DNA of 64,000 nt from a virus (IMGVR_UViG_3300027724_000010:5815-69814), one strand, 5' to 3'. Counted from the stretch's first letter, positions 21,700-54,758 are shown. Made by a program: numbers and translations. The notes: generated by a model not told the origin, from the letters alone.

Positions 21700-21708
21700 T
21701 TTTTAATT

Positions 21709-23424: not shown

Positions 23425-23425
23425 T

Positions 23426-24865: not shown

Positions 24866-25373
24866 TTTTAAAATTTTTTATTACATTTTTTGAAAAAGTT
24901 ATTAACTGCTCTATACTAGCTTCGTTTTTCATTGTATTAGCTAGTAGTGATATAATCCAGACATTTCCAGAAACATATCCTTTAGTATTATCAATTCTAT
25001 CTATAGATGCCCCATTAAGATTTCTACCATTACCATACACATAATCTAATTTTACATTTAATAGTGGACAATGTGTAGGTAAAATTTTAAAATCATCTTC
25101 TGTTATTGAGAATTCTATATTTCTAGTTCTAGCTGTATTTTTAGCAGTTAATAATTTTACTTTTAAATAATTTTCGCTTTTATATTTAAGCTTTTTCTTT
25201 TTATATTTTTCTGAAGAATATAAAGTTTTAATTTTATCTGTTTTTCTATATATTTTATCATATTCATTTTTACATATTTTACAATATTCTGATAAACCAG
25301 AATTTGTATTTTTGTTTTTATGAAATTCCATATTATCTTTTTCTATATTACATTTTTTACATATCTTTTTCAT
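24852..25373 (-). CDS. HNH homing endonuclease (zinc-finger N-terminus, IDRIDN-type HNH core)
   Basis: CKKCN…CKIC Cys pairs and NGASIDRIDNTKGYVSGNVWIISLLANTMK. Confidence 0.7.
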   Translation of the reverse strand: MKKICKKCNIEKDNMEFHKNKNTNSGLSEYCKICKNEYDKIYRKTDKIKTLYSSEKYKKKKLKYKSENYLKVKLLTAKNTARTRNIEFSITEDDFKILPTHCPLLNVKLDYVYGNGRNLNGASIDRIDNTKGYVSGNVWIISLLANTMKNEASIEQLITFSKNVIKNFKNDVD

Positions 25374-25398
25374 TATATTTTATATTCTTCGCTATATA

Positions 25399-27234
25399 TT
25401 ATTTTTTATCAATTAATCTTACAAATTCTTTTAAATAAACCGAAGCAGTAACTTCTGCCATACTTGGTGCAGAGTTAATTTCGATTATAGAAAATTCTGG
25501 AGAACTATTTTTACGTTCGTTTCCATCTTTATTTAAATTGGATTGTACTCTAACATCACAAGCTCCAAAATCTAATCCAACAGATTTGAGAGCTTTTATA
25601 CACTCATTCTGGATATTTTTTAAATTAACAGGAGCATCAAACAAAGGATTTTTCTCACTAATCCAATTACAGTTACTATTGTTAAAGAACCATTTTTGAT
25701 TAGCTGGAGTATCATTTCTCCTAAGCTTTCTCCACATTAAAAATACTCCATTAGTACTTACATGTATTCTATATTCTTTTGCAAAATTTTTAAATTTCTC
25801 AAAGATATAGTTTTCTATATTTCTACCTTTAGACCAACGTAACAACTCTTGTTCACTATCTAACTTATAATTACCTGTTCCACGAGATCCTAATATATGT
25901 TTTGCAACAATAGGATATTCTATATTAGAACCAGCTAAAGCACTAATAACATTGTCTATAGAATTTTGATAAACATACTCTGGTGTAGTTACTTTACCAT
26001 TTATAAAACAACGTTTCATTAGTAACTTAGATGAACTATTAGTTATAGCTTCTTCACTATTTAATACTACATCATACTCTTTAGTTGCTTTTGTTGTAGA
26101 TCCTAATCTTATTAATACTTTTTTAGTACTTTCTAAAACTTTTCTAAATACTCTATGAGATGGATGTCTAGATTTAATCTCAACTTCGTATCTTTTTTTA
26201 GTTTTATCTATATCATCTAAATAAGATTTATAATCAAATGTATATAATCTATCAACTAATTGATTAGTTAAACAATAACTATTATCAGGATTAAAAATAT
26301 AATAGATTTGTCTATCACCACATTGTACTTGATTACCTAATTTAATATAATCTCTAGACCTAGATACTTTATTAAGATATTTTTCTAATTCTACTGGGAA
26401 ATTATAAGCAATATATTGATCCCAAGATCCAGTATTTGGATCTATAGTTATACCTCTAATTTTAAAATCTACAATTTTATATTGTTTAAAAATATCCATT
26501 TTAGGATTATCTTTAGAATTATATAGAATAAAAGAAGTACTACTTTTAGCTATTTCGTTTAACTGTTTCATCGTTGTTAAGGCTTTTTCTATTGTTGTTT
26601 CATATGGTTCTTTAGTTTCACCTAAATATAAACCATATGGACCTGCTGCATTAGAAGCAACTTTATTAAAATGAGCTACTAACTCTTTTACAGTTACTTC
26701 TTTACAAACTACTGGAGGTAAAAAAGTATAAACTGAACTATTTATAGAACACCATGATAATTTTTTAATTCGATCAAACTCTGAATCATTTTTATCACAT
26801 ATATTTAAATAATTAAAGAGTATTTGTTGACCATAATAAAAATGTCTAAACATACAAAACGCATAATATCTATGTCTACTAGAAGTATAATCTCTTAAAT
26901 CTAGTTCAACAATTATAGACTCATTTATAGTAGTATAATTGCTAAGAAATTCGTATTTACCAGTAGCTTTAGATTCAAATATTTTAAATTTAAATCCAAA
27001 ATTTGATATTTCTTCTAAAATTTCTTCAAATGTTTTTTTAGTTTCATCGCACATTATTTTTATATCATCTTTCTTAAGAAATAGATACATATATCGTGAT
27101 GATGCTCCTGTAATAGCACCATTACAACCATTTAATCTATTAATACTACTACCAAGTAATAAATCTATATTCTCTTGTGTAAAAGGAGTACTACGAAATA
27201 TATGTGCAGAAAAATTTGATGTATTATGTCTCAT
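25399..27234 (-). CDS. ATP-grasp ligase (RimK/glutathione-synthetase-like C-terminal domain) with a large N-terminal domain of unknown function
   Basis: C-terminal YPIVAKHILGSRGTGNYKL…EYRIHV…E…N matches the ATP-grasp fold signature. Confidence 0.65.
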   Translation of the reverse strand: MRHNTSNFSAHIFRSTPFTQENIDLLLGSSINRLNGCNGAITGASSRYMYLFLKKDDIKIMCDETKKTFEEILEEISNFGFKFKIFESKATGKYEFLSNYTTINESIIVELDLRDYTSSRHRYYAFCMFRHFYYGQQILFNYLNICDKNDSEFDRIKKLSWCSINSSVYTFLPPVVCKEVTVKELVAHFNKVASNAAGPYGLYLGETKEPYETTIEKALTTMKQLNEIAKSSTSFILYNSKDNPKMDIFKQYKIVDFKIRGITIDPNTGSWDQYIAYNFPVELEKYLNKVSRSRDYIKLGNQVQCGDRQIYYIFNPDNSYCLTNQLVDRLYTFDYKSYLDDIDKTKKRYEVEIKSRHPSHRVFRKVLESTKKVLIRLGSTTKATKEYDVVLNSEEAITNSSSKLLMKRCFINGKVTTPEYVYQNSIDNVISALAGSNIEYPIVAKHILGSRGTGNYKLDSEQELLRWSKGRNIENYIFEKFKNFAKEYRIHVSTNGVFLMWRKLRRNDTPANQKWFFNNSNCNWISEKNPLFDAPVNLKNIQNECIKALKSVGLDFGACDVRVQSNLNKDGNERKNSSPEFSIIEINSAPSMAEVTASVYLKEFVRLIDKK

Positions 27235-43197: not shown

Positions 43198-44109
43198 TTA
43201 AATTATTTCTTGATTTTCAATTTTATTAACAATTTTATAAGCTTGTGATATATACCAATCTTTGTTTAGATTAGGATATCTCTCTTTTATCTTTTCAACT
43301 TTAATTCCTTTTTTGTAATCAAATATTTCTTCTTTTGGTATATTTAAAGCTAATGTAACTGGTGTATTAGCTTCTATAGCATCTATACCATCTTGTTTTT
43401 TACCTTTAGTCCAAAATTTAGATATTGTTTGATTACCACCAGCATAGTATCGTAAAAATCTATGATTCATCAATTCTGATTTAGCTACTTTAAGATCGGG
43501 ATTATAAGTAGTTAATAACCAAGAATAACTACCAGATCCTTTTACTCCATAACAAAAATCATAAATATTATTATGATTGTTTATTGTATCTTCTATAGGA
43601 GTACCATTTTTAAAATATTCTTGTAATGCTTGTGGTATAATAGAAGCAGAAGAATCTTTATGATATGCTCCTGATTTTATTAAATCAGCATGAGTTTCAA
43701 ATACCCCTTTGGTTTTGATATCTCCAGATTCTGTGATTGCTAAATAATTGTTTATGTCCCGAATTACATATTTTCGGTAAACATTAGTTTCATATGGTAT
43801 TTTACATATATTAGTTATTTCTTCAAATATAGAATTTAATAATTCTACATCTTTTCGTTCTACTAATATTTCTATACCATCAGTATTTTTAGATAAAATC
43901 GTTGCAGTGGGAATTCTTGTATATATTTTATCTGCTAGCATACAAATGGTTAATATGCCATTTATAGTAGTAAATAAAGTAAATTTTGTATCGTATAATG
44001 CTGAATATTCAGAATTAGATAGGCCAAAAATTAAATTTATAAGAATCTTTGTGCTATAATTCAATAAATATTGAGTTTTTTTATCGTACGTTTTTCTTTT
44101 TTCGTACAA
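43198..44109 (-). CDS. family-B DNA polymerase, C-terminal exon (motifs B and C); the annotated start is an alternative codon and the exon probably begins upstream
   Basis: KILINLIFGLSNS (KxxxNSxYG-like motif B) and LSKNTDGIEILV (DTD-like motif C). Confidence 0.5.
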   Translation of the reverse strand: MYEKRKTYDKKTQYLLNYSTKILINLIFGLSNSEYSALYDTKFTLFTTINGILTICMLADKIYTRIPTATILSKNTDGIEILVERKDVELLNSIFEEITNICKIPYETNVYRKYVIRDINNYLAITESGDIKTKGVFETHADLIKSGAYHKDSSASIIPQALQEYFKNGTPIEDTINNHNNIYDFCYGVKGSGSYSWLLTTYNPDLKVAKSELMNHRFLRYYAGGNQTISKFWTKGKKQDGIDAIEANTPVTLALNIPKEEIFDYKKGIKVEKIKERYPNLNKDWYISQAYKIVNKIENQEII

Positions 44110-45137
44110 TCCCTCTAATAAATTACAATATATTTCTGAAGGTATATGCTTTGGAGATACCTTATTTTTAAATTGTAAATGCGGATAATAACTTACACTT
44201 TTTGTTATCTACTATTACTAGTAGTGTCGGACTATTTCTTAATTTTACGCCAAATAAATCCATATATAGTTGGTTTATATCCATTGCATACTGCATAGAT
44301 ATTTTGCCATTTCCAACTAGGATTTTGTTGTAGAATATCTTCTACTGAGTTCCATATTTTTATAAGATTCATATTTTTATCATATTGATAAAAACAATTC
44401 ATCTTTTGTTTAGCTTTACTAACATTATCACTCATTATGAGTTTAACATTAGGGTTATCTCTCCAGAATATTTTAGATCTATTACCTATTTTAGTAGCTC
44501 TACTGGGATTATTTTTATAACTTTCTAGTTGGGATTTAGACATTAGTTTTTTAGTTTCGTCACTAACTATATTAGATTCATCACTATTATCCGATCTTAA
44601 ATTATATCCACAACGTCTATCTAAAGACGTATAATAATTCATCCAATATAACTCTCTATTTTTCAATAAATCTTCATCTCTATCTAAAACTTCAATAACT
44701 ACTGTTTTAAAATTATCAGCTCCATATTTATACCAAGAATTTATTAAATGTCTATTTTCATCTTTACTTTTAGATTTTAGAGTAGATCTATGATGAACTA
44801 ATCTTTTATATATATTATAAGATCTTCCTATATAAATTTTATTATTTATAATATTTATAATACCATATATCCCACATACGTTATATGTTTCTTTTCTATT
44901 TATAATCATATTTTATATTTTAACTAACGGCAAAGATAGTTAAAATATTTAATATTGCGTAAAATTTTGGACGCTTTTTCATTATAGTTTATGTATTATA
45001 CTATAACTACTTCCTGTTATTAAGATATATCGCTATATCTCAGGTAGTCTCTGCACCTTCTCTCTCTGAGAGCTTGGCTCAAGATTATCCTAACTATAAA
45101 ATTAGGGTTTCCTTGAATTCATCCAATAGTTTTAGTT
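44110..45137 (-). mobile_element. group I intron in the DNA polymerase gene carrying a GIY-YIG endonuclease ORF
   Basis: minus-sense R-like GTGCAGAGACTACC (~45040) and S AAGAAATAGTCCGAC (~44213-44228, just 3' of the endonuclease ORF); the exon-1 ORF ends inside PolB motif A (…FDFN). Confidence 0.55.
44232..44909 (-). CDS. GIY-YIG homing endonuclease
   Basis: CGIYGIINIINNKIYIGRSYNIYKRLVHHRS (GIY…YIG…R…H) then E…N in the catalytic domain, followed by a basic DNA-binding C-terminal half. Confidence 0.8.
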   Translation of the reverse strand: MIINRKETYNVCGIYGIINIINNKIYIGRSYNIYKRLVHHRSTLKSKSKDENRHLINSWYKYGADNFKTVVIEVLDRDEDLLKNRELYWMNYYTSLDRRCGYNLRSDNSDESNIVSDETKKLMSKSQLESYKNNPSRATKIGNRSKIFWRDNPNVKLIMSDNVSKAKQKMNCFYQYDKNMNLIKIWNSVEDILQQNPSWKWQNIYAVCNGYKPTIYGFIWRKIKK

Positions 45138-46112
45138 CTACTCTGTTATGTTAAAGTCGAACGTTATGATTACAAATTTTTCATTACTTTCGTATATACC
45201 CGATTCTACTGCCGAGTGGATCCCTCCAGATCCTATTTGTGTTGTTAATCCTTTATATGTAATAGATTTAGATACTGAATTTTTCAAACTTATAAGTTTT
45301 TTATCTGAATTGATATTACTTTTTAAAGTAGGTATCAAGGTTGTAGACTTATAAAATTCTAAAATCTCATTATATATAGGTAAATTAAATTTAATATACG
45401 GTAATATTATATCTTTAATATCTATTTTATCATAATAAGTTCTTAGTTTTGAAAAATCTCTAGTATCAATACTCATAGCTTGTGATAAATATTTATAAAA
45501 ATATTTCTTACCCATATCTGGTTCTGGAGAATTTAATATATCAATCTTATGAAGATTACCAAACTCTATTCTAAGCTTAATTAGTTCTTTTGTTATATTA
45601 AATACATCTCTAGTTACTTCTACGTCATATTTACAATATTTAATAACTTCATTAACTTGTGCTAGTGTTTTTATTTCGTCATTAAAATGATACGGTAAAT
45701 CTTTTATACTTTTTTTTCTAAGTATAAACTCTAAAGCTTTTAAACTCGTAGTTTTTGCTCCGCGTGGTCCATAATTATTTACTAACATGAGATCTATTGT
45801 TTTATTACACAATTTATCTTCTCTATAAATAGGCCACTCACTATTTATTAACTCATCATTAAACTCTTTTATTTCTTTTGCTGTAGATAATCCTGCTTTA
45901 ACTATTCTAGTTAAAATATTCATATCATAACCTAAAGAGTTATAACCAATAAAATAAGTATTTTCGTTATCTTTTAGATATTGTCGTAAATCTCTTATTT
46001 GATTGATATCATTCCACACTGTAAATACTGTATGTTTATTTTCTTTTGGATCATAAAATACAGCAACAAACAAATTTACATAAACTTCCAAATCGAACAG
46101 GACTAATTTCAT
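45138..46112 (-). CDS. family-B DNA polymerase, N-terminal exon (3'-5' exonuclease domain up to motif A)
   Basis: Exo I LVLFDLEV, Exo II FIGYNSLGYDMNIL, Exo III YCKYDVEVT, and the start of motif A ITFDFN at the C-terminus. Confidence 0.65.
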   Translation of the reverse strand: MKLVLFDLEVYVNLFVAVFYDPKENKHTVFTVWNDINQIRDLRQYLKDNENTYFIGYNSLGYDMNILTRIVKAGLSTAKEIKEFNDELINSEWPIYREDKLCNKTIDLMLVNNYGPRGAKTTSLKALEFILRKKSIKDLPYHFNDEIKTLAQVNEVIKYCKYDVEVTRDVFNITKELIKLRIEFGNLHKIDILNSPEPDMGKKYFYKYLSQAMSIDTRDFSKLRTYYDKIDIKDIILPYIKFNLPIYNEILEFYKSTTLIPTLKSNINSDKKLISLKNSVSKSITYKGLTTQIGSGGIHSAVESGIYESNEKFVIITFDFNITE

Positions 46113-46151: not shown

Positions 46152-46409
46152 TTAAATAATTATTGATTTTAAATCTTTTATTATTAATTCTTCCACAACT
46201 TCCCAGCAATCTATATATAAACCATGATCAAGTAAACCAATAATTGTTGGATCAGTTATTTCTATATAACCCACAACAAAATTTAAATTACTTAAATTAG
46301 CATTTTCTATACCTATAGTCATTAATATATTTGCGTTATTACTATTTTTACTATCAACTACAGATACCCAAATACCAAAAAATATGTTAGTATTATACCA
46401 ATAACTCAT
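46152..46409 (-). CDS. small protein, possible degenerate member of the tandem family
   Basis: 85 aa with only weak resemblance (…VVEELIIKDL…). Confidence 0.4.
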   Translation of the reverse strand: MSYWYNTNIFFGIWVSVVDSKNSNNANILMTIGIENANLSNLNFVVGYIEITDPTIIGLLDHGLYIDCWEVVEELIIKDLKSIII

Positions 46410-46677
46410 TATTACTTATATTATTTATATCTTCTATTATTAACTTATTAAGTGTTTCTTTTAGTTGTAAATGCATATTATGATTTATAATATTAATAAT
46501 AGTAGTATTTTTTATTTGTATATGTTTTATCATAGGATTTAAATTAATTAGATCATTTACATCAACATAACAATGAAAATAAGATCTTTTAGATTTGTAT
46601 ATACTTTTTTTTTTATTTACTATTGCTATTACTATTATACCCTTAATTGTTTTTTGAATTTCGTAAAACATCTTCAA
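46393..46677 (-). CDS. tandem-family small protein
   Basis: contains NTTIINIINHNMHLQLKETLNKLIIEDI. Confidence 0.55.
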   Translation of the reverse strand: MKMFYEIQKTIKGIIVIAIVNKKKSIYKSKRSYFHCYVDVNDLINLNPMIKHIQIKNTTIINIINHNMHLQLKETLNKLIIEDINNISNNELLV

Positions 46678-46975
46678 ATCGATTTAATATGTTTTTATCG
46701 TTTAAATCTTCAACAACTATAGCTCTAAAACTAATATATAGCTCTTTATGTATTTTATGATTTAACATATTTATTATGGTATTATTTTTTATTTCTATTA
46801 GTGGAGAATTTGTATTTTCAAAAATAGTACTTATTATTTTATTATATACTTTAGATATTTCTTTTTTGCTTACTATACTATGATGAAGATAAATATTTGT
46901 TTTATCTGTAATAGTTATATAAGCTCTTTTTGACCGATCATCTCTATTTAATCTATAATAATATTTAATGTTCAT
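46643..46975 (-). CDS. tandem-family small protein
   Basis: contains TIINMLNHKIHKELYISFRAIVVEDL. Confidence 0.55.
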   Translation of the reverse strand: MNIKYYYRLNRDDRSKRAYITITDKTNIYLHHSIVSKKEISKVYNKIISTIFENTNSPLIEIKNNTIINMLNHKIHKELYISFRAIVVEDLNDKNILNRFEDVLRNSKNN

Positions 46976-47264
46976 ATTTTATAATTATTGAGTGTTTTGC
47001 ATACATTATTCTTTTAAACTCTTCTTTAATCAACATAGTAAATATCTCTTTATTAGATTTATATCTATCATTTCGTATCATTGATAAAACTATATCATTA
47101 TTTATTCTATGTGGTTTCTTATAATATACAGATTTTTCTGGTGCTTTAAAATCAAGATAAATTACTCCACTATAAAGATTGCGATGACCTTTTTTGTTTG
47201 TAATAATTAATGTATTAGATCCCGCATAATTACTTAGTTTATAATAGTATTTAGGCATTTTCAA
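46965..47264 (-). CDS. tandem-family small protein
   Basis: contains IVLSMIRNDRYKSNKEIFTMLIKEEF. Confidence 0.55.
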   Translation of the reverse strand: MKMPKYYYKLSNYAGSNTLIITNKKGHRNLYSGVIYLDFKAPEKSVYYKKPHRINNDIVLSMIRNDRYKSNKEIFTMLIKEEFKRIMYAKHSIIIKYEH

Positions 47265-47568
47265 TATTTAATTTTTTAAAAAGTTTATCAATATCTTCTT
47301 TAACAATTATATCAAATATATCTCTATTACTTATATGTTGTTTATTATGAATCATTTTTAATATTATTTCATTTGTTACCGGATAAAATCTATTAGCAAG
47401 AACTTCTTCATCTTTTAGTACTTTATTTTTAAAATTATAAGTTTTATAACTTATAACTGAATAAGGTTTATCTGGATTTTTGATATTTTGTAAATCTATA
47501 AAAATTGTTTTAGTATTATTAATAATAACTGATGAAAATATCAATCTGTAACCTATTTCATTATTCAT
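47251..47568 (-). CDS. tandem-family small protein
   Basis: contains IILKMIHNKQHISNRDIFDIIVKEDI. Confidence 0.55.
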   Translation of the reverse strand: MNNEIGYRLIFSSVIINNTKTIFIDLQNIKNPDKPYSVISYKTYNFKNKVLKDEEVLANRFYPVTNEIILKMIHNKQHISNRDIFDIIVKEDIDKLFKKLNIENA

Positions 47569-47582
47569 CTTAATATAATATT

Positions 47583-47912
47583 TTATTTATATGATACTCT
47601 AATATAATCATACCAAACTCCGTTTTCTAATATAAAATTACCAATATCTTCTTTTAATAATATAGTAAATATTTCTTTACAGTTTAAATACCTACCTGTT
47701 TTAATCATATCTATAATTAAATCATTAGTTATTTTATGTTTAGTATTATTTAAATAATCTATATTAGTAGCTTTACAACCATCTACAATAATAAATATTG
47801 CAGGTTTAAAAACAGTACATATTTTATTTTCATTTATTTTATATTCTTTTATACTAATACAAGCTTCTATATTAGTATCAAAACCTTTACGTAGTGTTAT
47901 TTGATAAATCAT
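47583..47912 (-). CDS. tandem-family small protein
   Basis: contains LIIDMIKTGRYLNCKEIFTILLKEDI. Confidence 0.55.
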   Translation of the reverse strand: MIYQITLRKGFDTNIEACISIKEYKINENKICTVFKPAIFIIVDGCKATNIDYLNNTKHKITNDLIIDMIKTGRYLNCKEIFTILLKEDIGNFILENGVWYDYIRVSYK

Positions 47913-48231
47913 TACTTGTACGTTCTATTATTTTTTTAATTTCATTATTTACATCTTCGTTTACTATAATGTCAAATAATTCTTCATTTGCATCGTAATG
48001 TTTAGAATCTATAATATTTAAAACTACTGGGTTTGTAATTTCTATATTTAAACCACCTAAATACTTTAACTGTAATAATTGTTTATAATAAGATGTTTCA
48101 TCTATATCGAATCTATAGATACCATTCCAATGTAGACTACCTTTTTTTTCAATTATTTTTACTCTAATAGTATCAAAAGAGCTTTTAATACCTGGTGTAA
48201 TTATTACATAATATAGTTTACTCTCTTCCAT
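47887..48231 (-). CDS. tandem-family small protein
   Basis: contains VVLNIIDSKHYDANEELFDIIVNEDV. Confidence 0.55.
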   Translation of the reverse strand: MEESKLYYVIITPGIKSSFDTIRVKIIEKKGSLHWNGIYRFDIDETSYYKQLLQLKYLGGLNIEITNPVVLNIIDSKHYDANEELFDIIVNEDVNNEIKKIIERTSNDLSNNTT

Positions 48232-48559
48232 ACATTGTTTTTTTATAGTAAGCTATTTTTACTTTTGTAGTAAAACCTACTTGTGTACCAGTAATAAATT
48301 TAACAACCCATGTTTGATGTGAGTATATTACAGATACTTTTTCTTTTTTTCGTTTCTTATTTTCGGATCCTATTTCTATAAATTCATACTCTTTTTGATC
48401 TTCTGGTATTTCTGAGTTTATATCTCTATATAATAAGATAGCATCACCCCTATATGATTTTTGATTATTCCAACTTAACCAAATAGGGATAATGCTACCT
48501 TCTTTTAAATGTTTTTTGTGAATCTTGTGCTGCATATTATTTTTTATGCAAAAATACAA
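48218..48559 (-). CDS. hypothetical protein interleaved in the array; lacks the family motif
   Basis: 113-aa ORF, K-rich. Confidence 0.45.
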   Translation of the reverse strand: MYFCIKNNMQHKIHKKHLKEGSIIPIWLSWNNQKSYRGDAILLYRDINSEIPEDQKEYEFIEIGSENKKRKKEKVSVIYSHQTWVVKFITGTQVGFTTKVKIAYYKKTMYGRE

Positions 48560-48567
48560 GATTTATA

Positions 48568-48978
48568 CTAATAATCATAATTTATATAAATAAAATAATC
48601 TTTTATATCTTCTTTTATTAATATTTGAAATAGTTCAATATTTGATTGAGCATGTCCTGATTCTATCATATTAATAACACTAGAAGATTGAACTGGTATT
48701 TTAGTATCTGATACACTAATAAATTTATCCCAAAAGGTTAACATAAATATATGTTCTCCATCTTTTGATATATATCCTTTAGAATTATTATTGTTTTTAG
48801 CAAATTCGTAAAAATATATAGGTTTTTTTATAACTTCATCATTTAATTTATCTATTGCTATTATAACTATAAAAACAAAAAATAAAAAAATAAACAAAAA
48901 ACCAAAACTATGCATAAATACTTCATTAGTCATAATACTGATATTTTGTAACCATATCGGGAAAAATATAACTATCAA
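48568..48978 (-). CDS. tandem-family small protein with an N-terminal TM helix
   Basis: hydrophobic FGFLFIFLFFVFIVIIAI and SVINMIESGHAQSNIELFQILIKEDI. Confidence 0.55.
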   Translation of the reverse strand: MIVIFFPIWLQNISIMTNEVFMHSFGFLFIFLFFVFIVIIAIDKLNDEVIKKPIYFYEFAKNNNNSKGYISKDGEHIFMLTFWDKFISVSDTKIPVQSSSVINMIESGHAQSNIELFQILIKEDIKDYFIYINYDY

Positions 48979-49306
48979 AATCTTCTTTAATTAAGATATT
49001 AAATAATTCTTTATTGTTTAAATAATGACCAGATTTTAACATACTTAAAATAACTTTATCTTTAATATATATTTTATTATCTGGTAATATTTTATAAACA
49101 CTACTATATGTTATCAGTATTGCATATTTAACTTCTAAATCACTAGATTTGATTGCCAGCTTTATTACAGTATCATTATGTATAACATAATTATAATAAT
49201 ATAAACCAGTATTAACTATATATGGTTCTTCAGTCATTTTACTGTGTAATATATATAAACTACAAATAGTAGCAACAATACTTACAATAGCTACAAACGC
49301 TTCCAT
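48926..49306 (-). CDS. tandem-family small protein with an N-terminal TM helix
   Basis: contains VILSMLKSGHYLNNKELFNILIKEDF. Confidence 0.55.
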   Translation of the reverse strand: MEAFVAIVSIVATICSLYILHSKMTEEPYIVNTGLYYYNYVIHNDTVIKLAIKSSDLEVKYAILITYSSVYKILPDNKIYIKDKVILSMLKSGHYLNNKELFNILIKEDFDSYIFPDMVTKYQYYD

Positions 49307-49680
49307 GTTATATTTTTACTATTTTTATTAAAATAATCATTAATCATTATCTTAAATATATCAGAAGATGTTTCATATCTTTCTTCTTTAATCATTTTAA
49401 GAATTAATTTATCTTTTAATTTTAATTTACATATTTCAGTTATATCTGTATGACTAGTAGGTGATATTTCGTCATATATACTACAAATAGGATGAATACT
49501 ATCATTATATTTCATTTTAACATGAATATTAAACAACTCAATAGAATTAACAATATCACTATATTTATATATTGTTAAATAGTAGTAAACATTATTTTCT
49601 AAATAATATAATCTTATTTGATCTATTAATAAAGGTATTATTGCACCAAGAATGAAAAAACCAATAGACTCATCTAACAC
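49291..49680 (-). CDS. tandem-family small protein with an N-terminal TM helix
   Basis: contains LILKMIKEERYETSSDIFKIMINDYF. Confidence 0.55.
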   Translation of the reverse strand: MLDESIGFFILGAIIPLLIDQIRLYYLENNVYYYLTIYKYSDIVNSIELFNIHVKMKYNDSIHPICSIYDEISPTSHTDITEICKLKLKDKLILKMIKEERYETSSDIFKIMINDYFNKNSKNITWKRL

Positions 49681-49957
49681 GTTTGGTATATTTTCTTTTT
49701 GGTTTTATAGTTGTTTCTACAACTTCTACATCTGATTCCACAATTGGTTCATTTACCTTTACACTTTCAAAGATAGGATCAAAAAATACATTAGGGGTAT
49801 CTTTGTTTATTTTATTATTTAATCTTTCATTTTGTTTATAAGTACTATTTGTAATTATAAAATTAAATAAAAACGCCAAAACCATAACACCTGCTATAAA
49901 TAAAAGAGCTAACATAATTATTATTTTAATAGATTTAAAAAAATGTAGAGATAGCAT
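49670..49957 (-). CDS. small membrane protein
   Basis: 95 aa with one TM helix; lacks the family motif. Confidence 0.45.
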   Translation of the reverse strand: MLSLHFFKSIKIIIMLALLFIAGVMVLAFLFNFIITNSTYKQNERLNNKINKDTPNVFFDPIFESVKVNEPIVESDVEVVETTIKPKRKYTKRVR

Positions 49958-49993
49958 TATACTATCTCTACGTATACTAATGATTGAAAAACA

Positions 49994-50794
49994 TTATTGT
50001 TTTTGTAAAAGTATATTTGTTCCAGATCCAAATACGTTTCCAGAACCATATTTACTTATACCTTTTCTCGCCCATTCTAATTCTATTTCTAATTCTTTTA
50101 GTTTTAGATTAGCTGGTGTTGATAATAGAGTTGCTGATTTAGCATCAAATTGAGCAGCTTCGTATTTACCTTTAGCTTCTGCTACAAGAGCATTACCAAG
50201 ATTAAGCTTTTCTTCTTCCATTTTAGATGCTAACTTATTTTTCTCTACTTGTTCAGCTGTTTTTTCTGCTTGTTGTGAGATGGTACCCGGTAAATCTACA
50301 TCTGTAATTTGTACTCTTGCAAAGGATAGATAGAAATTTGGTAATTCTTCAGATAAAATTTTACCAAGCTTTTCTTCTGCTTCTGCTCGTTTACTAAGAT
50401 TCAGATCTACTGCTGTATATTGAGGTATAACTTCTTTAGCTGCTGATTTTATTGTTTTTTCTAATTTAGCTTCTACATCAGTAATTTTACTATGTAATAA
50501 ATTTACTTTATCAGGAGTATAATTAAAATCTACAGATATTTCAACATTTGTAAGCATAGAGTTTAAATCATTAAACTCAAATTTTGATATAGTTGTTTTT
50601 TCTCTACAATCGTACTCTACCAAATCATCAAACATCCAATGTAACCCACCGTGGAATCCTTCTGGATAAATAGTTGTCATATTTGTTTCACCACCCCAAC
50701 TCACTTCTACACCCTTATGTCCAGGCGATACGCTTTCGCATGATCCCAAACTAAATACTAATAAAATAGATAAATAACTAAAAAACTTTTTCAA
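49994..50794 (-). CDS. SPFH/Band-7 (prohibitin/HflK-like) domain lipoprotein
   Basis: signal peptide with lipobox LVFSLGSC; SPFH core …ARVQITDVDLP… followed by an A/E/K-rich helical region. Confidence 0.7.
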   Translation of the reverse strand: MKKFFSYLSILLVFSLGSCESVSPGHKGVEVSWGGETNMTTIYPEGFHGGLHWMFDDLVEYDCREKTTISKFEFNDLNSMLTNVEISVDFNYTPDKVNLLHSKITDVEAKLEKTIKSAAKEVIPQYTAVDLNLSKRAEAEEKLGKILSEELPNFYLSFARVQITDVDLPGTISQQAEKTAEQVEKNKLASKMEEEKLNLGNALVAEAKGKYEAAQFDAKSATLLSTPANLKLKELEIELEWARKGISKYGSGNVFGSGTNILLQKQ

Positions 50795-50967
50795 TTTTTA
50801 ATGTTTTAAATGTGTTAAATAAAATCTTCATGATCGTTTTTATAGAGTCGATCAATACTCTCTTTTGAACCATCATCTGGTACTGTTCGATTAAAATATC
50901 GATATGTTACCCAAAATAAATAAATAACAATGCTAGGCGTTATTATATACAAAAATAGTTTCATTTC

Positions 50968-51249
50968 TTATTTTTTTCTTGTACATATTAAAGAACCCTT
51001 AGCATGAGCATCTTCTGCAAAATCAGATGCTAACTCAACAAATACGGTAGTATTGAAATTGCTACCTACGTCAATAGTTCTACAATATTTACCAGCATTA
51101 AACCTGCCGGTAGCTATTGCGTTACCAATTTTGCGAACAAAATTGTCCTTTCTAGAACATCTCGACGCTGAGAGTAATAGTTTTCCATCTACTACATCTC
51201 CTACAACCGTTACTCGATTGCTTTTGTGTTTACTGTGAAGTACTAACAT
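50968..51249 (-). CDS. hypothetical protein (GC content noticeably higher than its neighbours)
   Basis: 93-aa ORF rich in G/A/R/V codons. Confidence 0.5.
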   Translation of the reverse strand: MLVLHSKHKSNRVTVVGDVVDGKLLLSASRCSRKDNFVRKIGNAIATGRFNAGKYCRTIDVGSNFNTTVFVELASDFAEDAHAKGSLICTRKK

Positions 51250-51324
51250 AAATTAAATTAAATTTTATTCTTTATTCGCAATAAAAGAAGAGTTACTATT
51301 TCTAGTAACCCTTCACTCTCAAAA

Positions 51325-53163
51325 TTACGAACACATTTCTCGTACTAAGTCATACCGATTGGACTGGTACAAACTTTTTAATGGAGTATATATATCGATA
51401 ATATCCATATCAGATATTTTTGTAAATACCTGATTTATTGTACTCATATTATAAGTACAAATATGAATAACATTTTCGATATTATCGAAATATCCAGATT
51501 TATTTACAGAATCTCCAAGCTTTGGTACATCCCATAATACTATTACACCATCCCAGCTAAACCACTGTCTCATTTTCATCTGAAAATCAGCCATACTAGC
51601 TGCTGCGGAGTGAGAGTTGTTTAAATCACCATCAGATATTACAAGCATAACTTGATAATCGCTGACTTGCTCTCTTCTATGTGCTTTTTCTACTTCACTA
51701 GTAGAAGAATCTACCCATTTACGAATATTTTCAGCTATCCCTGTAAAGTTAGTTGAACCCATACTAGCATTAACAAATGCTCCAACACTATTAAAGTTAG
51801 TTTGGAAATCTGCTTCTCTATCTACTAATTTACTTACTACTACTGATTGTTTACCCATAAATCTATTATTAGATGTTAGAGCTGTACTTTGATCTGTAAT
51901 ACAATCAGTTGCTGTACCAAATCTAAATAGTAAGTTATCCATTTTGTTTGGATTCTTTAATAAAGCAAGAGTTGTTAACAATCTAGCAATCTGCATAGGT
52001 CTACCATTCATGGAACCACTACAGTCTACTATTGGTAGTAATGGTACATTAAACTCTACTTTGTCGAGTATTGCTTGTATTGTAACATCTGTGGCTTTAC
52101 CTTGTAGAAATTGCTCAAGATAACTAAACAAAGAAGTAGCACCAACGGTTACTTTAGCATCTTTAGTAACTTTAGCTAATTGAGCTTTCTCATTGTCAGA
52201 TAAACCAACAGTAGATGCTTTAGCTTCTAGAATACGTTTTTCTTGTTGTAGTTTAAGTTTAGATTTCTCCCAATCTAAAAACCATTTAGACAACTTGGTC
52301 CATTTAGTTTTTGGTTTATCATCACCATCTAACAATCTACGTCTAACTCTATATCTAGCACCACTTGGTAGCGTGTTTATCCAATTTACAAACTGTTCTT
52401 TATCAAACTCAGCAATTTTACCAGTGGAAAACAATACAAACTCTAAATTTTGATTATATTGTTTTTGCCATTCTTTATACCCAACAAATGCGGTATAATT
52501 TTCTTTTACATCAACTAACCACTCCATCTCTTTCGATAAATCTAATACTAATCTATGATAGCATTTCATTTTATCTTTGGTTCGATTCTGAAGTTGTCTT
52601 TTACCTGTAACTGTGCCGTCTTTTTTTTTAGCTATTCTAGCACTAGATCGTGGTATATGTACAAATTTTGCTACTTGATGTTTCATAAAAGGGTTGTTAC
52701 CCCTAATATATTTAGCAAGTAATTTTATCAATCCAGTATATGCAATAGGGTTATTTTGAATTATATTTAACAATCCCCATACACCAGTAATAGATTTCTT
52801 ATTAGTTTTTATTTGAAGAGTTACTAACTCTCTTAAACCAACATATTCTACTATTAAAGGCAAAAATTTTACAAATGTTTTAGGTTCAGCATTAATTAAC
52901 CAACTCACATACTCTATCCATTGTGGATTAGCAGCATTACCACCAGCATCTACTTTAGATTTAAATATGTTATGTTGTCGATTAGTAATATCACCTAAAC
53001 TGAAACATATAATATGAAACAATTGTATAAACATATTGTTATCCCCTGCTTCTCTTCTAGCAGCATCTAAATATTTAACAATTGATCCTTTTACGCCATT
53101 TTGAAATAGCGCAAATAAACTTTTTAACCCATAGAATGGGTTTTCATAAACTAACTTTTTCAT
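51325..53163 (-). CDS. von Willebrand factor A domain protein (CobT-like partner of the adjacent AAA+ ATPase)
   Basis: LPIVDCSGSMNG MIDAS motif in the C-terminal third; 612 aa. Confidence 0.7.
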   Translation of the reverse strand: MKKLVYENPFYGLKSLFALFQNGVKGSIVKYLDAARREAGDNNMFIQLFHIICFSLGDITNRQHNIFKSKVDAGGNAANPQWIEYVSWLINAEPKTFVKFLPLIVEYVGLRELVTLQIKTNKKSITGVWGLLNIIQNNPIAYTGLIKLLAKYIRGNNPFMKHQVAKFVHIPRSSARIAKKKDGTVTGKRQLQNRTKDKMKCYHRLVLDLSKEMEWLVDVKENYTAFVGYKEWQKQYNQNLEFVLFSTGKIAEFDKEQFVNWINTLPSGARYRVRRRLLDGDDKPKTKWTKLSKWFLDWEKSKLKLQQEKRILEAKASTVGLSDNEKAQLAKVTKDAKVTVGATSLFSYLEQFLQGKATDVTIQAILDKVEFNVPLLPIVDCSGSMNGRPMQIARLLTTLALLKNPNKMDNLLFRFGTATDCITDQSTALTSNNRFMGKQSVVVSKLVDREADFQTNFNSVGAFVNASMGSTNFTGIAENIRKWVDSSTSEVEKAHRREQVSDYQVMLVISDGDLNNSHSAAASMADFQMKMRQWFSWDGVIVLWDVPKLGDSVNKSGYFDNIENVIHICTYNMSTINQVFTKISDMDIIDIYTPLKSLYQSNRYDLVREMCS

Positions 53164-53194
53164 TTTTGTTTTTTTTGTTTTAAGTTAATTATAA

Positions 53195-54301
53195 TTAAAA
53201 TGCAAATTTTGATGTTGCACCATTAAATACGTATATCTTCTCTAAAGATAATTTATAGACTTCGTTTTTAATATCTTTAATTAAATTATCGATAACAAAT
53301 ACAGTATCATCTTCAGTTACACCTTTATCTTTAGCATTAATATACTCTGTTATTTCACTTATTAATCTTTCGGAATCAATAGTTACTTTAGTATCAACAC
53401 TTATTTCTCTTTTTAGTGATTCACATAAAGCTTCTGATGGGTAATAATAAAATATCCTATCATTATCATCACTAAATCGTATAGCATTAGAAGATACACT
53501 TGGTAATCTCATTGATTCATAATACGGTTTAGAATTTTTTGTTAACGAGTAATAATATTTATAATTTTCTTCTTGTATATTTAAACAATTCGAATATTTT
53601 ATAAAATTATTAATTCCGTGTATTTTTATTACACCAACAATACTATTACATATATCATATGATAAATTTTTTATTTTACTTAAGTAATTTAATAATTCTT
53701 TTTTCATAGATATTTCTATAATACTAGAAATAAATTCTAAACCTTCTTCTGGTAATAATCTATCGAATTTAAAATCAAATATAAATCTACCAGGTCTATT
53801 AAAAAAGTAATTACTTAATTTACTTTTATCGTTAAAACTACAAATCGTAATTACTTTTTTACCAAAATCTATTCCATCTAAAAATGTTAATAACGTATTA
53901 GATGAGTCTTCTTTTGCATATAATTTTTCAAACTCATCGAAAAATACAATAACATCAGAATTTATTCTATTAATAATATCTATAATAGTATTACCAGATA
54001 ATGCTTCATCTATAAATATTGTTGGTATTTTAGATTCAATAATAAAATTTTTAATGGTTTGAGTTTTACCCATACCACTTAAACCTGAGAACAATGCACC
54101 AAAACTATTTGATTTATTAGTGTGTTCTAATAATAAATTAACATATTCGTTAGATATACCAAACATTTTTTTATATTCGTAATTTGGTAATTTACTTAAA
54201 TATGTACCAGTCATTGTTTGTACAATTTTGTAAATACCTAGTGGTAAACTATCAATGGTTTCACCACTATTAAAATGAACTTCATTATTACTTTTAATCA
54301 T
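53195..54301 (-). CDS. AAA+ ATPase
   Basis: Walker A GALFSGLSGMGKTQT and Walker B VIVFFDEFEK. Confidence 0.7.
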   Translation of the reverse strand: MIKSNNEVHFNSGETIDSLPLGIYKIVQTMTGTYLSKLPNYEYKKMFGISNEYVNLLLEHTNKSNSFGALFSGLSGMGKTQTIKNFIIESKIPTIFIDEALSGNTIIDIINRINSDVIVFFDEFEKLYAKEDSSNTLLTFLDGIDFGKKVITICSFNDKSKLSNYFFNRPGRFIFDFKFDRLLPEEGLEFISSIIEISMKKELLNYLSKIKNLSYDICNSIVGVIKIHGINNFIKYSNCLNIQEENYKYYYSLTKNSKPYYESMRLPSVSSNAIRFSDDNDRIFYYYPSEALCESLKREISVDTKVTIDSERLISEITEYINAKDKGVTEDDTVFVIDNLIKDIKNEVYKLSLEKIYVFNGATSKFAF

Positions 54302-54411: not shown

Positions 54412-54517
54412 TAAAGCAGATGGGACTCGAACCCACGACCACGGCTTTATCAGTGCTGTTAAATTATTATAAGTAGATATTCTACTATACGTGCTCTACC
54501 AGCTGAGCTACTGCTTT
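54412..54517 (-). tRNA. tRNA-like gene with a ~35-nt insertion between the D-arm and anticodon arm; anticodon-loop-like CUGAUAA (Ile GAU-like); non-canonical
   Basis: acceptor AAAGCAG/CTGCTTT, D-arm GCTC-AGCTGGTA-GAGC and T-arm GTGGG-TTCGAGT-CCCAT are all canonical; the middle is 56 nt instead of ~22 and the anticodon stem is weak. Confidence 0.35.
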
Positions 54518-54606: not shown

Positions 54607-54649
54607 AGTTATTATAAGTGTATTATTTGTATCTTTGTCAGATGCGAGG
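54607..54649 (-). promoter_or_regulatory. sigma70-like promoter, copy 1 of a conserved 43-nt element
   Basis: minus-sense CCTCGCATCTGACAAAGATACAAATAATACACTTATAATAACT has a -35-like CTGACA, ~18-nt spacer and -10 TATAAT; 42/43 identical to 55721-55763. Confidence 0.5.
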
Positions 54650-54758
54650 GGAGTACAGGATTCGAACCTGTGTTACGAGCACCCAAAGCTATTTTAAAGT
54701 ATTATAAGTACGTAAACATACTGTATATACGCGTCCTAAACCACTAGACGAACTCCCC
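54646..54758 (-). tRNA. tRNA-like gene with a ~39-nt insertion between the D-arm and anticodon arm; anticodon-loop-like UUUGGGU (Pro UGG-like); non-canonical
   Basis: acceptor GGGGAGT/ACTCCCC, D-arm GTCT-AGTGGTTTA-GGAC and T-arm ACAGG-TTCGAAT-CCTGT are canonical; the insert is related to that of the 54412 element (CGTATA…TACTTATAATAMTTTAA). Confidence 0.35.

What the first reader, a model, noticed from the sequence alone, without database searches (positions are those of the whole stretch)
46152..49957. Tandem array of at least nine small paralogous genes with a conserved C-terminal KED motif
Consecutive overlapping minus-strand ORFs of 94-136 aa share a C-terminal signature: a hydrophobic residue, xxM[IL], four residues, Y, four residues, E[IL]FxI[LI][IV]KED[IF]. 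Their N-terminal halves diverge, and several carry an N-terminal TM helix (48568..49680). I do not recognise this family. A local gene-family expansion with diversified N-termini and membrane anchoring in some copies is the pattern seen for host-takeover, superinfection-exclusion or anti-defence modules in large phages.
Basis: seen in the sequence. Interest (0 to 1): 0.7.

Follow-up and report, generated by a model that had tools for sequence, protein, structure and literature searches.

The report
Fast-evolving ten-gene array, crAss-like phage
An uncultivated crAss-like phage from wastewater carries ten diverged tandem copies of a small gene found almost nowhere else, and these copies change far faster than their neighbours, which suggests a set of host-targeting proteins whose actual function is still untested.

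Summary
There are ten paralogs of 85-129 aa on the minus strand at 46152-49680. Two unrelated genes also lie inside the reported span: nm105 (48218-48535) and TM81 (49670-49915). Leave-one-out HMMs score each member at 16-55 bits, against 10.5 bits or less for 701 other reading-frame pieces from the same AT-rich window, so composition does not explain the motif.

The family has no match in Pfam, PHROGs, NCBIfam or PADLOC. Searches of 5.8 and 1.84 billion proteins found only about two dozen sequences, all traced ones from relatives of this crAss-like phage. Two sister lineages carry one detectable copy directly upstream of the DNA polymerase gene; here it expanded to ten.

AlphaFold2 predicts a variable antiparallel beta-sheet packed on a conserved C-terminal helix pair. 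Three copies have an N-terminal membrane helix. Against a 94-98% identical relative, members have dN/dS of 0.3-1.7, while flanking genes have 0.01-0.25. Relatives also show in-frame deletion chimeras and replaced alleles.

Best reading (confidence 0.42): early-expressed accessory binders of variable host targets, for counter-defence or host takeover. Function is inferred, not shown. It is a new family showing a known evolutionary pattern.

The parts
49291..49680 (-). m1, family member, 129 aa, GTG start, weak N-terminal membrane helix, degenerate motif (IMINDYF)
   Evidence: left-out 16.4 bits; KD19 1.94. Against L001 it is 80% aa identical with dN/dS 1.70, and the changes are concentrated at residues 56-78.
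48926..49306 (-). m2, family member, 126 aa, N-terminal membrane helix
   Evidence: 54.5 bits; AF2: helix 2-24, beta-sheet, helices 84-92 and 99-114; pLDDT 75; KD19 2.22
48568..48933 (-). m3, family member, 121 aa from the ATG (the ORF lister extends it to a TTG at 48978), strong N-terminal membrane helix
   Evidence: 33.3 bits; gene call of 121 aa in identical contigs; KD19 3.09
48218..48535 (-). nm105, NOT a member: a conserved basic 105-aa gene embedded in the array
   Evidence: No HMM match. It is 99% identical to the L001 copy with dN/dS 0.04. Orthologs in L008, L011, L013 and L014 lie upstream of the polymerase gene, separated from it by up to two small genes.
47887..48231 (-). m4, family member, 114 aa, acidic
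   Evidence: (38.7 bits). It donates the N-terminal part of chimera P0013.
47583..47912 (-). m5, family member, 109 aa; the copy used for the better structure model
   Evidence: 47.2 bits; AF2 pLDDT 83.6, pTM 0.74: strands 4-9, 15-27, 30-44, 57-60, 103-108; helices 64-72 and 79-96
47251..47568 (-). m6, family member, 105 aa
   Evidence: 37.9 bits. It donates the C-terminal part of chimera P0013.
46965..47258 (-). m7, family member, 97 aa, strongly basic (+10.8)
   Evidence: (36.5 bits). Its core-coding 93 nt (47020-47112) is the reference copy of DNA repeat D1.
46643..46975 (-). m8, family member, 110 aa, divergent motif (VVEDL)
   Evidence: 17.4 bits. The allele in L017-L019 is only 54% identical although m5 in L017 and L018 is 100% identical.
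46393..46671 (-). m9, family member, 92 aa
   Evidence: 25.2 bits. DNA repeat D3 with m8, 78% over 60 nt.
46152..46409 (-). m10, family member, 85 aa, acidic (-7.4); last gene before the DNA polymerase gene
   Evidence: (21.3 bits). In L001 it is replaced by a 28%-identical variant although the adjacent polymerase part is 99.7% identical.
49670..49915 (-). TM81, NOT a member: 81-aa membrane protein, first gene after the terminator-like hairpin
   Evidence: gene call of 81 aa; KD19 2.72. Similarly placed membrane proteins lie just upstream of the nm105 ortholog in L011 (32% identical by BLASTP) and in L013 and L014 (judged by eye from position and sequence).
49945..49971 (-). terminator-like hairpin (12-bp stem plus T run) between the SPFH gene and TM81; a possible boundary of the transcription unit that holds the array
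   Evidence: 2 such sites found in 5.5 kb, 0.4 expected from shuffles. Consensus match only; not tested.
45138..46112 (-). context: N-terminal part of the family-B DNA polymerase gene, 39 nt downstream of m10
   Evidence: phrog_1252, E 1.5e-53. The same gene follows the single family copy in L008 and L011.

Best explanation
**What is shown.** The array holds ten protein-coding paralogs of a family that searches found only in a small clade of crAss-like phages, mostly in wastewater metagenomes. Each predicted protein has an antiparallel beta-sheet, which is the variable part. A conserved C-terminal helix-loop-helix (consensus N-x-x-I-I-x-M-I ... Y ... E-I-F-x-I-L-I-K-E-D) packs against that sheet. 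Three copies (m1-m3) add an N-terminal membrane helix. Sister lineages L008 and L011 carry one detectable copy immediately upstream of the DNA polymerase gene, at a position that holds unrelated small genes in L013 and L014. In this lineage the gene expanded to ten copies. The family changes by amino-acid substitution roughly ten times faster than its neighbours, by in-frame deletions that fuse neighbouring copies (one junction examined lies at a short microhomology), and by replacement of single array positions with very divergent alleles.

**What is inferred.** The genes are probably transcribed early with the replication module. Each paralog probably acts as a small stoichiometric binder whose variable sheet surface recognises a different, variable host protein, such as a defence effector or a takeover target, in the cytoplasm or at the membrane. 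The helix pair would be the common folding core or a common docking element. The array would then be a standing repertoire shaped by an arms race.
For: **Real paralogy and coding**
- Leave-one-out HMM scores separate members from everything else in the window.
- 11 long ORFs are present against 0.21 expected.
- The locus is 100% identical in two other contigs, L004 and L005.

**Narrow distribution**
- 13 hits among 5.8 billion proteins.
- 17 true hits among 1.84 billion representatives.
- No new lineage with a broader profile.
- No match in Pfam, PHROGs, NCBIfam or PADLOC.

**Fold**
- AF2 pLDDT 83.6 and pTM 0.74 for m5.

**Dispensable, accessory position**
- One detectable copy before the polymerase gene in L008 and L011.
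- None in L013, L014 or Cellulophaga phage phi14:2.

**Fast evolution**
- Against L001, members have dN/dS of 0.32-1.70 and 73-90% aa identity. Flanking genes have 0.01-0.25 and 90-100%.
- Pooled values: variable part 0.70, core 0.47, flanks 0.12. The Nd:Sd odds ratio against flanks is 6.1, p 8e-18.
- Substitutions cluster in the sheet region, and the helices are conserved.

**Turnover**
- Chimeras P0013 and P0020, the first joined at an ~11-nt microhomology.
- Deletions in L001-L003.
- In L017, m5 is 100% identical but m8 only 54%. In L001, m10 is 28% identical beside a 99.7% identical polymerase part.

**Diversified chemistry**
- Net charge ranges from -7.4 to +10.8.

**Early timing, by analogy**
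- In phi14:2 the whole replicative module is early and is transcribed by the virion RNA polymerase (doi 10.1101/2020.03.07.982082).

**Precedents for this pattern**
- Amplification of anti-defence loci in phage T6 (PMC13096335).
- Recombining strings of non-identical immunity paralogues in firmicutes (title and abstract of PMC9484751).
Against: - No direct functional evidence exists: no homolog, partner or fold match of known function.
- Pooled dN/dS stays below 1, so positive selection is not demonstrated. Relaxed constraint alone could give 0.5-0.7. The pooled counts are also not independent, because L001 and L002 share history.
- Only m1 and a short m4 fragment exceed 1. No significance test was run on those single genes.
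- The host is unknown, so no defence target can be named.
- Timing is inferred from a distant relative (35% polymerase identity).
- The constant position next to the polymerase gene could instead point to a replication-linked role.
- The AF2 models rest on a shallow alignment of 17 sequences.
Confidence: 0.42

Rival explanations
1. The family encodes replication accessory factors. The ancestral protein would work with the phage family-B DNA polymerase, for example as a processivity, loading or priming helper. The paralogs would be sub-functionalised versions of it.
For: - A family copy lies directly upstream of the polymerase gene in three lineages. In L008 its stop overlaps the polymerase start by 4 nt.
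- The array lies inside the replication module, with primase, DnaB-like helicase and polymerase on the same strand.
- Foldseek's weak best matches are OB-fold PriB and SSB proteins.
Against: - The gene is absent from L013 and L014, which keep TM81, nm105 and the polymerase gene, and from phi14:2.
- The single-copy member of L008 is about 36% identical to its best window match over a partial alignment, and the L011 member has no BLASTP match to any window member. The polymerase N-part is 60-66% identical and nm105 55-65%.
- dN is about ten times that of the polymerase gene.
- Three copies are membrane-anchored.
- The OB-fold matches have E>=0.4 and TM about 0.2-0.3, which is not significant.
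Confidence: 0.15
2. The proteins are miniature SPFH/FliL-like membrane-scaffold proteins. They would act with the neighbouring phage SPFH (Band 7) lipoprotein at the host inner membrane, for example in superinfection exclusion or in modulating a host membrane protease.
For: - A true SPFH lipoprotein gene lies 300 bp upstream (PF01145, E 2e-17).
- m1-m3 and TM81, which lie next to it, have N-terminal membrane helices, like stomatin or FliL.
Against: - Foldseek finds nothing in the PDB or BFVD.
- There is no Pfam Band_7 match, and hhalign against the neighbouring SPFH protein gives a probability of 0.3%.
- Seven of the ten copies have no membrane helix.
- A terminator-like hairpin separates the SPFH gene from the array.
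- The single-copy genes in L008 and L011 have no SPFH gene called nearby.
- The models show no long C-terminal coiled coil.
Confidence: 0.12
3. The copies are functionally decaying duplicates. A single useful gene was amplified, and the extra copies now drift towards loss without individual function.
For: - dN/dS of 0.5-0.7 is close to neutral.
- Relatives have lost or fused copies.
- L001 holds what looks like a frame-broken copy: two overlapping ORF pieces at 10164-10526 and 10418-10672.
- GC content is lowest in the array, 0.17-0.23.
Against: - All ten ORFs are intact in DNA of about 20% GC, where stop codons arise easily (11 long ORFs against 0.21 expected).
- The copies have diverged to 11-47% core identity yet keep the same motif in register. 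That requires long purifying selection on every copy.
- The variable part is slightly but significantly below neutral (p 0.04), and the core is lower still.
- Membrane helices are retained in the divergent alleles P0005, P0007 and P0025.
Confidence: 0.1
4. The shared motif is an artefact of AT-rich composition (enrichment of K, I, N and E) and the ORFs are not homologous.
For: The region has 17-23% GC, and the motif is rich in I, K, N and E.
Against: - Leave-one-out HMMs give 16-55 bits for members and 10.5 bits or less for 701 ORF pieces of the same composition.
- Composition-corrected BLASTP gives E down to 4e-10.
- The conserved columns are in register.
Confidence: 0.01

Closest known systems
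Hyperplastic accessory-gene regions of large lytic phages, and amplification of anti-defence loci (for example SegB-driven segmental amplification in phage T6, PMC13096335)
   Same: - Small early-region genes of unknown function sit at a variable position between conserved replication genes.
- Copy number differs among close relatives.
- A GIY-YIG homing endonuclease gene lies 1.2 kb away, at 44232-44909.
   Different: - The copies here are old and diverged: 11-47% core identity, and DNA similarity only in a 93-nt core segment. They are not near-identical fresh amplicons.
- L017 has the expanded array but an uninterrupted polymerase gene, so the nearby endonuclease is not required.
- No defence target is known.
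Strings of non-identical immunity-gene paralogues next to polymorphic toxin loci (EsaG and TsaI arrays of firmicute type VII secretion systems, PMC9484751; only the title and abstract were read here)
   Same: - Tandem strings of diverged paralogues.
- Joining of neighbouring copies yields deletions and hybrid genes (P0013 and P0020 here).
- A conserved part plus a variable part, consistent with many specificities on one scaffold.
   Different: - This array is in a phage, not a bacterium.
- There is no sequence or fold relation.
- No cognate toxin is known.
- The junction examined here is an ~11-nt microhomology that is out of register with the domain, not long homologous recombination.
SPFH / Band 7 / FliL fold
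   Same: - Both have an alpha/beta two-layer arrangement.
- Some copies have an N-terminal membrane anchor.
- A genuine SPFH gene is a neighbour.
   Different: - There is no sequence signal (Pfam, hhalign).
- Foldseek finds nothing.
- The domain is smaller, at about 85-105 aa.
- There is no C-terminal coiled coil.
- Most copies are soluble.
Poxvirus-type 'gene accordions' (named from general knowledge; no paper on them was read here)
   Same: Expansion and contraction of a tandem array of a host-interaction gene as an adaptive route.
   Different: This array is a long-standing, diverged repertoire rather than a transient dosage increase. The adaptive role is also unproven.

Membership tests
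SPFH / Band 7 (PF01145) | Sequence match to the Band_7 profile | tested here: not met
   None of the ten members matches at E<=1. hhalign of the family profile against the neighbouring true SPFH protein gives a probability of 0.3%.
SPFH / Band 7 (PF01145) | SPFH alpha/beta fold | tested here: inconclusive
   [not shown]
SPFH / Band 7 (PF01145) | Long C-terminal helix or coiled coil for ring assembly, plus a membrane anchor | tested here: not met
   The models end 10-25 residues after helix 2 and have no long coiled coil. Only 3 of 10 copies have a membrane helix.
Ribbon-helix-helix (Arc/MetJ/CopG) DNA-binding proteins | A strand-helix-helix unit whose strand pairs with a second subunit; fold match to RHH structures | tested here: not met
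   [not shown]
OB-fold ssDNA-binding proteins (SSB, PriB) | Five-stranded OB barrel with a significant fold match | tested here: not met
   PriB and SSB appear only at Foldseek E 0.4-1.5, with TM 0.17-0.30 and rmsd 6-11 Å.
Target genes of diversity-generating retroelements | Template/variable repeat pair, adenine-specific differences, and a reverse transcriptase nearby | tested here: not met
   The hypervariable patch of m1 has no second copy at >=62% identity anywhere in the window. The substitutions show no adenine bias. A [YF]xDD motif scan found three ORFs, none examined further and none resembling a reverse transcriptase context. Only the 64-kb window was searched.
Known defence or anti-defence protein families (PADLOC-DB, PHROGs annotated categories) | Profile match | tested here: not met
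   PADLOC gives two isolated single-member hits, at E 5.5e-4 and 4e-3, to a methyltransferase model and a Cas12f model. No family is shared between members. PHROGs gives nothing below E 0.01. BFVD viral structures give no match at E<0.1. A dedicated anti-defence library was not available.
Recent segmental amplification ('accordion') driven by a homing endonuclease | Near-identical tandem units, and dependence on an adjacent endonuclease | tested here: not met
   The units share only 60-78% DNA identity over 51-93 nt. L017 has the expanded array without the intron and endonuclease in its polymerase gene.
Tandem arrays of diversified binder or immunity paralogues (a functional class, not a sequence family) | Non-identical tandem paralogues with a conserved scaffold and a variable surface; joining of copies; raised substitution rate | tested here: met
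Tandem arrays of diversified binder or immunity paralogues (a functional class, not a sequence family) | Each paralogue neutralises a cognate variable partner | not testable with these tools
   The host and any partners are unknown. This needs interaction or phenotype assays.

The most novel reading that the evidence does not exclude
The array is a phage-encoded repertoire of modular binders. A conserved C-terminal helix pair would dock every copy to one common partner, either a phage protein such as the replisome or a host hub. The hypervariable sheet would give each copy a different host defence target, with a membrane-anchored subset covering envelope-associated defences. The repertoire would be renewed by allele exchange between co-circulating phages. 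That would be a new anti-defence protein family, and apparently a new fold, in Bacteroidota phages, where counter-defence is almost unexplored.
Probability: 0.2. Interest if true: 0.75.

Novelty: new variant of a known kind. Interest (0 to 1): 0.5.

Why it matters
crAss-like phages are among the most abundant phages of Bacteroidota, yet very little is known about how they handle host defences. This locus gives a concrete, compact candidate set. It holds ten diverged copies of one scaffold, with natural alleles, chimeras and single-copy relatives already available as controls.

If the proteins are binders of host factors, the family would give several things at once:
- a new counter-defence or takeover family;
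- a fold with no confident structural match;
- a case study of how a phage builds and maintains a repertoire by duplication, deletion and allele exchange.

If they are not, the locus is still a clear example of an accessory hot spot beside the polymerase gene of this phage clade.

Tried and rejected
- **Near-identical phage genomes.** Megablast of the locus against 50,697 phage records found nothing.
- **Related loci by pattern scan.** The family alignment was too variable for the scan. The nm105 gene gave no confirmed relative in IMG/VR or in JGI metagenome contigs.
- **AFDB50 fold search.** The library was not available.
- **Profile search of PDB sequences.** It returned only a 21-bit match to a beta-phosphoglucomutase, which I judge spurious.
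- **False positives in the exhaustive protein search.** P0018 (758 aa) and P0022 (189 aa) are internally repetitive sequences whose matches come from several short stretches. I judged them false positives and excluded them.
- **g118 as a distant member.** The 118-125-aa gene that precedes the single copy in L008 and L011 has a similar-looking C-terminus (ELFKIIMKKYLD). Its HMM score is 2-7 bits, and hhalign gives E 0.029 with probability 1.7%. Left open.
- **Diversity-generating retroelement.** Rejected.
- **Structured RNA in the array.** None.
- **Sigma-70-type promoters.** No more than chance, 60 against 54. Bacteroidota and virion-polymerase promoters are not covered by that scan.
- **Link between the GIY-YIG endonuclease and array expansion.** Not supported, because L017 has the array without the intron.
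- **Names from source databases.** None given.

Full report
**1. What is in the sequence**

The window has about 25% GC, and nearly all genes from 6 kb to 62.5 kb lie on the minus strand. Between 46152 and 49957 the ORF list shows twelve tightly packed minus-strand ORFs.

Ten of them align over a C-terminal block of about 36 residues. The consensus reads I-x-I-x-N-x-x-I-I-x-M-I-x-x-x-x-Y-x-x-N-x-E-I-F-x-I-L-I-K-E-D. An aromatic run (Y-Y-Y) is also seen by eye in the first strand.

Using gene calls from identical contigs, the members are:
- m1 49291-49680
- m2 48926-49306
- m3 48568-48933
- m4 47887-48231
- m5 47583-47912
- m6 47251-47568
- m7 46965-47258
- m8 46643-46975
- m9 46393-46671
- m10 46152-46409

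Two ORFs inside the reported span are unrelated. They are nm105 (48218-48535) and TM81 (49670-49915). Neighbouring genes overlap by 8-29 nt or are separated by 14-39 nt, and 98.7% of the interval is coding.

**2. Is it more than chance?**

Yes, on four counts:
- An HMM of the 36-residue core, rebuilt ten times with one member left out, scores the left-out member at 16-55 bits. The best of 701 other six-frame ORF pieces from the same AT-rich window reaches 10.5 bits at most.
- No further copy exists elsewhere in the window.
- BLASTP with composition-based statistics links 19 of 45 pairs at E<1e-3.
- Shuffles of the interval give 0.21 ORFs of at least 85 aa on average, against 11 observed.

At the DNA level only the core-coding segment is still recognisable between copies, at 60-78% over 51-93 nt. 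Core protein identity is 11-47%. The duplications are therefore old. m8, m9 and m10, which are adjacent, are closest to each other.

**3. Whose genome is it?**

- Downstream of the array lies a family-B DNA polymerase gene in two pieces (45138-46112 and 43198-44109; phrog_1252), interrupted by a GIY-YIG endonuclease ORF (44232-44909). Partial group I intron matches flank that ORF, at 44967-45126 (E 1.7e-9) and 44208-44374.
- An intact ortholog of the polymerase (L008, 659 aa) has its best matches in Cellulophaga phage phi14:2 (Crassvirales, 35% identity), in gut crAss-like phages, and in Flavobacterium phage FpV4.
- The 1504-aa protein at 630-5144 matches only crAss-like phages.
- The same strand carries a primase and a DnaB-like helicase.
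- Contigs 100% identical to the window occur in two other samples, L004 and L005. Two of the related contigs (L003, L009) are labelled wastewater metagenome.

I conclude that this is an uncultivated crAss-like phage, probably of a low-GC Bacteroidota host. The host assignment is inferred.

**4. Distribution of the family**

- The ten members have no meaningful match in Pfam, PHROGs, NCBIfam or PADLOC.
- A profile search of 5.8 billion clustered proteins gave 13 hits, all orthologs or variants of window members.
- An exhaustive HMMER search of 1.84 billion representatives gave 19 hits. I excluded two as repeat-driven false positives. The rest are window orthologs plus a handful of divergent members, P0019, P0021 and P0023-P0026.
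- A broader profile found no new lineage.

Every member that could be placed on a contig sits in an array or next to the polymerase gene of a relative of this phage.

**5. Origin of the array**

I followed the conserved embedded gene nm105 into other lineages. The gene orders are:

| Lineage | Gene order |
|---|---|
| L008, L011 | nm105 - g118 - one family member - DNA polymerase |
| L013, L014 | TM81-like - nm105 - unrelated small genes - DNA polymerase |
| phi14:2 | no family member upstream of its polymerase gene |
| Window | TM81 - m1 m2 m3 - nm105 - m4 to m10 - DNA polymerase |

In L008 the family member overlaps the polymerase start by 4 nt. In L014 the unrelated small genes include two tandem paralogs of yet another unknown family.

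So a single accessory gene, at a variable position in front of the polymerase gene, expanded to ten copies in the window lineage. Three copies were inserted upstream of nm105, and these three carry N-terminal hydrophobic helices. Their Kyte-Doolittle 19-residue maxima are 1.94, 2.22 and 3.09, while the other members are below 1.4. The helices are kept in the divergent alleles P0005, P0007 and P0025.

**6. Structure**

AlphaFold2 with the family alignment gave two models.

- m5: pLDDT 83.6, pTM 0.74. Strands at 4-9, 15-27, 30-44, 57-60 and 103-108; helices at 64-72 and 79-96.
- m2: pLDDT 75. The same domain, preceded by a helix at residues 2-24.

The conserved motif is the short strand plus the two helices. 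The variable residues lie in the long strands.

The fold searches gave little:
- Foldseek finds nothing significant in the PDB or in BFVD.
- There is no sequence relation to the true SPFH lipoprotein encoded just upstream at 49994-50794 (hhalign probability 0.3%).
- A terminator-like hairpin at 49945-49971 lies between that gene and TM81.

I treat 'SPFH-like' as a weak lead, not a classification.

**7. Evolutionary behaviour**

Compared with L001, which is 94-98% identical in DNA:

| Gene | dN/dS | aa identity |
|---|---|---|
| SPFH | 0.01 | 90-100% across this flanking set |
| polymerase N-part | 0.02 | |
| polymerase C-part | 0.11 | |
| phosphoesterase | 0.11 | |
| nm105 | 0.04 | |
| g93 | 0.08 | |
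| 612-aa gene | 0.20 | |
| TM81 | 0.25 | |
| m1 | 1.70 | 80% |
| m2 | 0.86 | 73% |
| m3 | 0.49 | 75% |
| m7 | 0.32 | 89% |
| m9 | 0.78 | 90% (partial alignment) |

Pooled over full-length ortholog pairs:

| Region | dN/dS | dN |
|---|---|---|
| variable part | 0.70 | 0.138 |
| 36-residue core | 0.47 | 0.060 |
| flanking genes | 0.12 | 0.012 |

The excess of non-synonymous change over the flanks is highly significant (odds ratio 6.1, p 8e-18). The variable part is only slightly below neutral expectation (p 0.04). The pooled pairs are not independent, because L001 and L002 share history.

Substitutions among orthologs cluster in the sheet region. In m1, most residues from 56 to 78 differ, while the rest of the protein is almost unchanged.

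Relatives also differ in gene content:
- L001-L003 lack 782 bp, which fuses the start of m4 to the end of m6 in frame. The product is P0013 (59 aa), joined at an ~11-nt imperfect microhomology.
- P0020 is a similar m2/m3-type fusion.
- L001 has a further deletion and a 28%-identical replacement of m10, beside a 99.7% identical polymerase part.
- L017 has m5 at 100% identity but m8 at 54%, and its polymerase gene is uninterrupted.

Net charge ranges from -7.4 to +10.8 among paralogs. A diversity-generating retroelement does not explain the variable patch.

**8. Most likely mechanism**

Three things are shown. The genes are real and translated-looking. They are dispensable across lineages. They evolve far faster than every gene around them while keeping a common scaffold.

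The rest is inferred:
- Timing is probably early, because in phi14:2 the entire replicative module is early and is transcribed by the virion RNA polymerase (doi 10.1101/2020.03.07.982082).
- The proteins probably act as small binders whose variable sheet surfaces recognise different, variable host proteins, some of them at the membrane. The helix pair would be the folding core or a common docking element.

Two precedents fit this pattern. One is phage anti-defence loci that are amplified under selection (PMC13096335). The other is bacterial strings of recombining immunity paralogues (abstract of PMC9484751). I put this at 0.42.

The rivals are a replication accessory role (0.15), an SPFH-like membrane scaffold role (0.12), decaying duplicates (0.10) and compositional artefact (0.01). 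The remainder is something not yet conceived.

**9. Novelty and score**

The family is new by sequence and has no confident fold match. Its distribution is unusually narrow. The kind of thing it appears to be, a diversifying accessory gene family in a plastic region of a lytic phage, is well known in general terms. I therefore rate it a new variant of a known kind, with interest 0.5. It is a good, well-controlled candidate for experimental discovery of counter-defence in crAss-like phages, but function has not been demonstrated.

Noticed in passing
window 43198-46112 (-), intron about 44110-45137: The family-B DNA polymerase gene is split at about the point where the intact L008 ortholog reads DFASYYPH (compared by eye). 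The insert carries a GIY-YIG endonuclease ORF (44232-44909). It is flanked by partial group I intron matches at 44967-45126 (E 1.7e-9) and 44208-44374 (E 2.6e-4), both below Rfam's gathering score. L008 and L017 have uninterrupted polymerase genes.
   Followed up: partly
window 54412-54517 and 54647-54758 (-); also 57774-57858 (-): Two tRNA-model matches (45.9 and 40.4 bits) carry about 33-39 extra nucleotides in the anticodon-arm region, and ARAGORN does not call them. Both contain the string CTTATAAT. A normal tRNA-Leu(UAA) lies at 57774-57858. These could be intron-containing or otherwise unusual phage tRNAs. Unexplained.
   Followed up: partly
window 48218-48535 (-): nm105 is a basic 105-aa protein embedded in the array. 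It is under strong purifying selection (dN/dS 0.04 against L001) and is 50-72% identical across at least ten related lineages, always upstream of the polymerase gene. It has no Pfam or PHROGs match, and its function is unknown.
   Followed up: partly
window 49994-54301 (-): A gene cluster lies upstream of the array: an SPFH/Band 7 lipoprotein (49994-50794), a 93-aa gene, a 612-aa protein with faint vWA-like matches (51325-53163) and an AAA ATPase (53195-54301). This could be a MoxR-vWA-like module paired with an SPFH protein in a phage.
   Followed up: no
L014 1235-2077 (+): In a related lineage, the same position between nm105 and the polymerase gene holds two tandem paralogs (128 and 145 aa) of a different unknown family with a conserved GC[IV][VT]GHCASLY motif. 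This suggests the position is a general hot spot for accessory genes.
   Followed up: partly
L008 2621-2977 (+); L011 4825-5202 (+): g118 is a 118-125-aa gene (motif WFKTKDLHPL) that lies between nm105 and the single family copy. Its C-terminus (ELFKIIMKKYLDSN) resembles the family motif, but the similarity is not significant (hhalign E 0.029, probability 1.7%). It is absent from the window.
   Followed up: partly
window 46152-49680: The array genes have the lowest GC of the window (0.17-0.23 per gene), against 0.25-0.31 for the flanking regions and 0.28 for the embedded conserved gene nm105.
   Followed up: no
window 7404-8453 and 19238-27234 (-): A run of enzymes not usual for a replication module: a nucleotidyltransferase (phrog_388), an ATPase, an HNH-annotated 416-aa protein, a glutamine amidotransferase-like protein (23426-24865) and a RimK/'S6 glutaminyl transferase'-like protein (25399-27234). 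This could be a nucleotide or DNA modification pathway.
   Followed up: no
window 630-5144 (+): A 1504-aa protein on the opposite strand has database matches (21-25% identity over about a third of its length) only in gut crAss-like phages, where it is annotated as hypothetical.
   Followed up: partly
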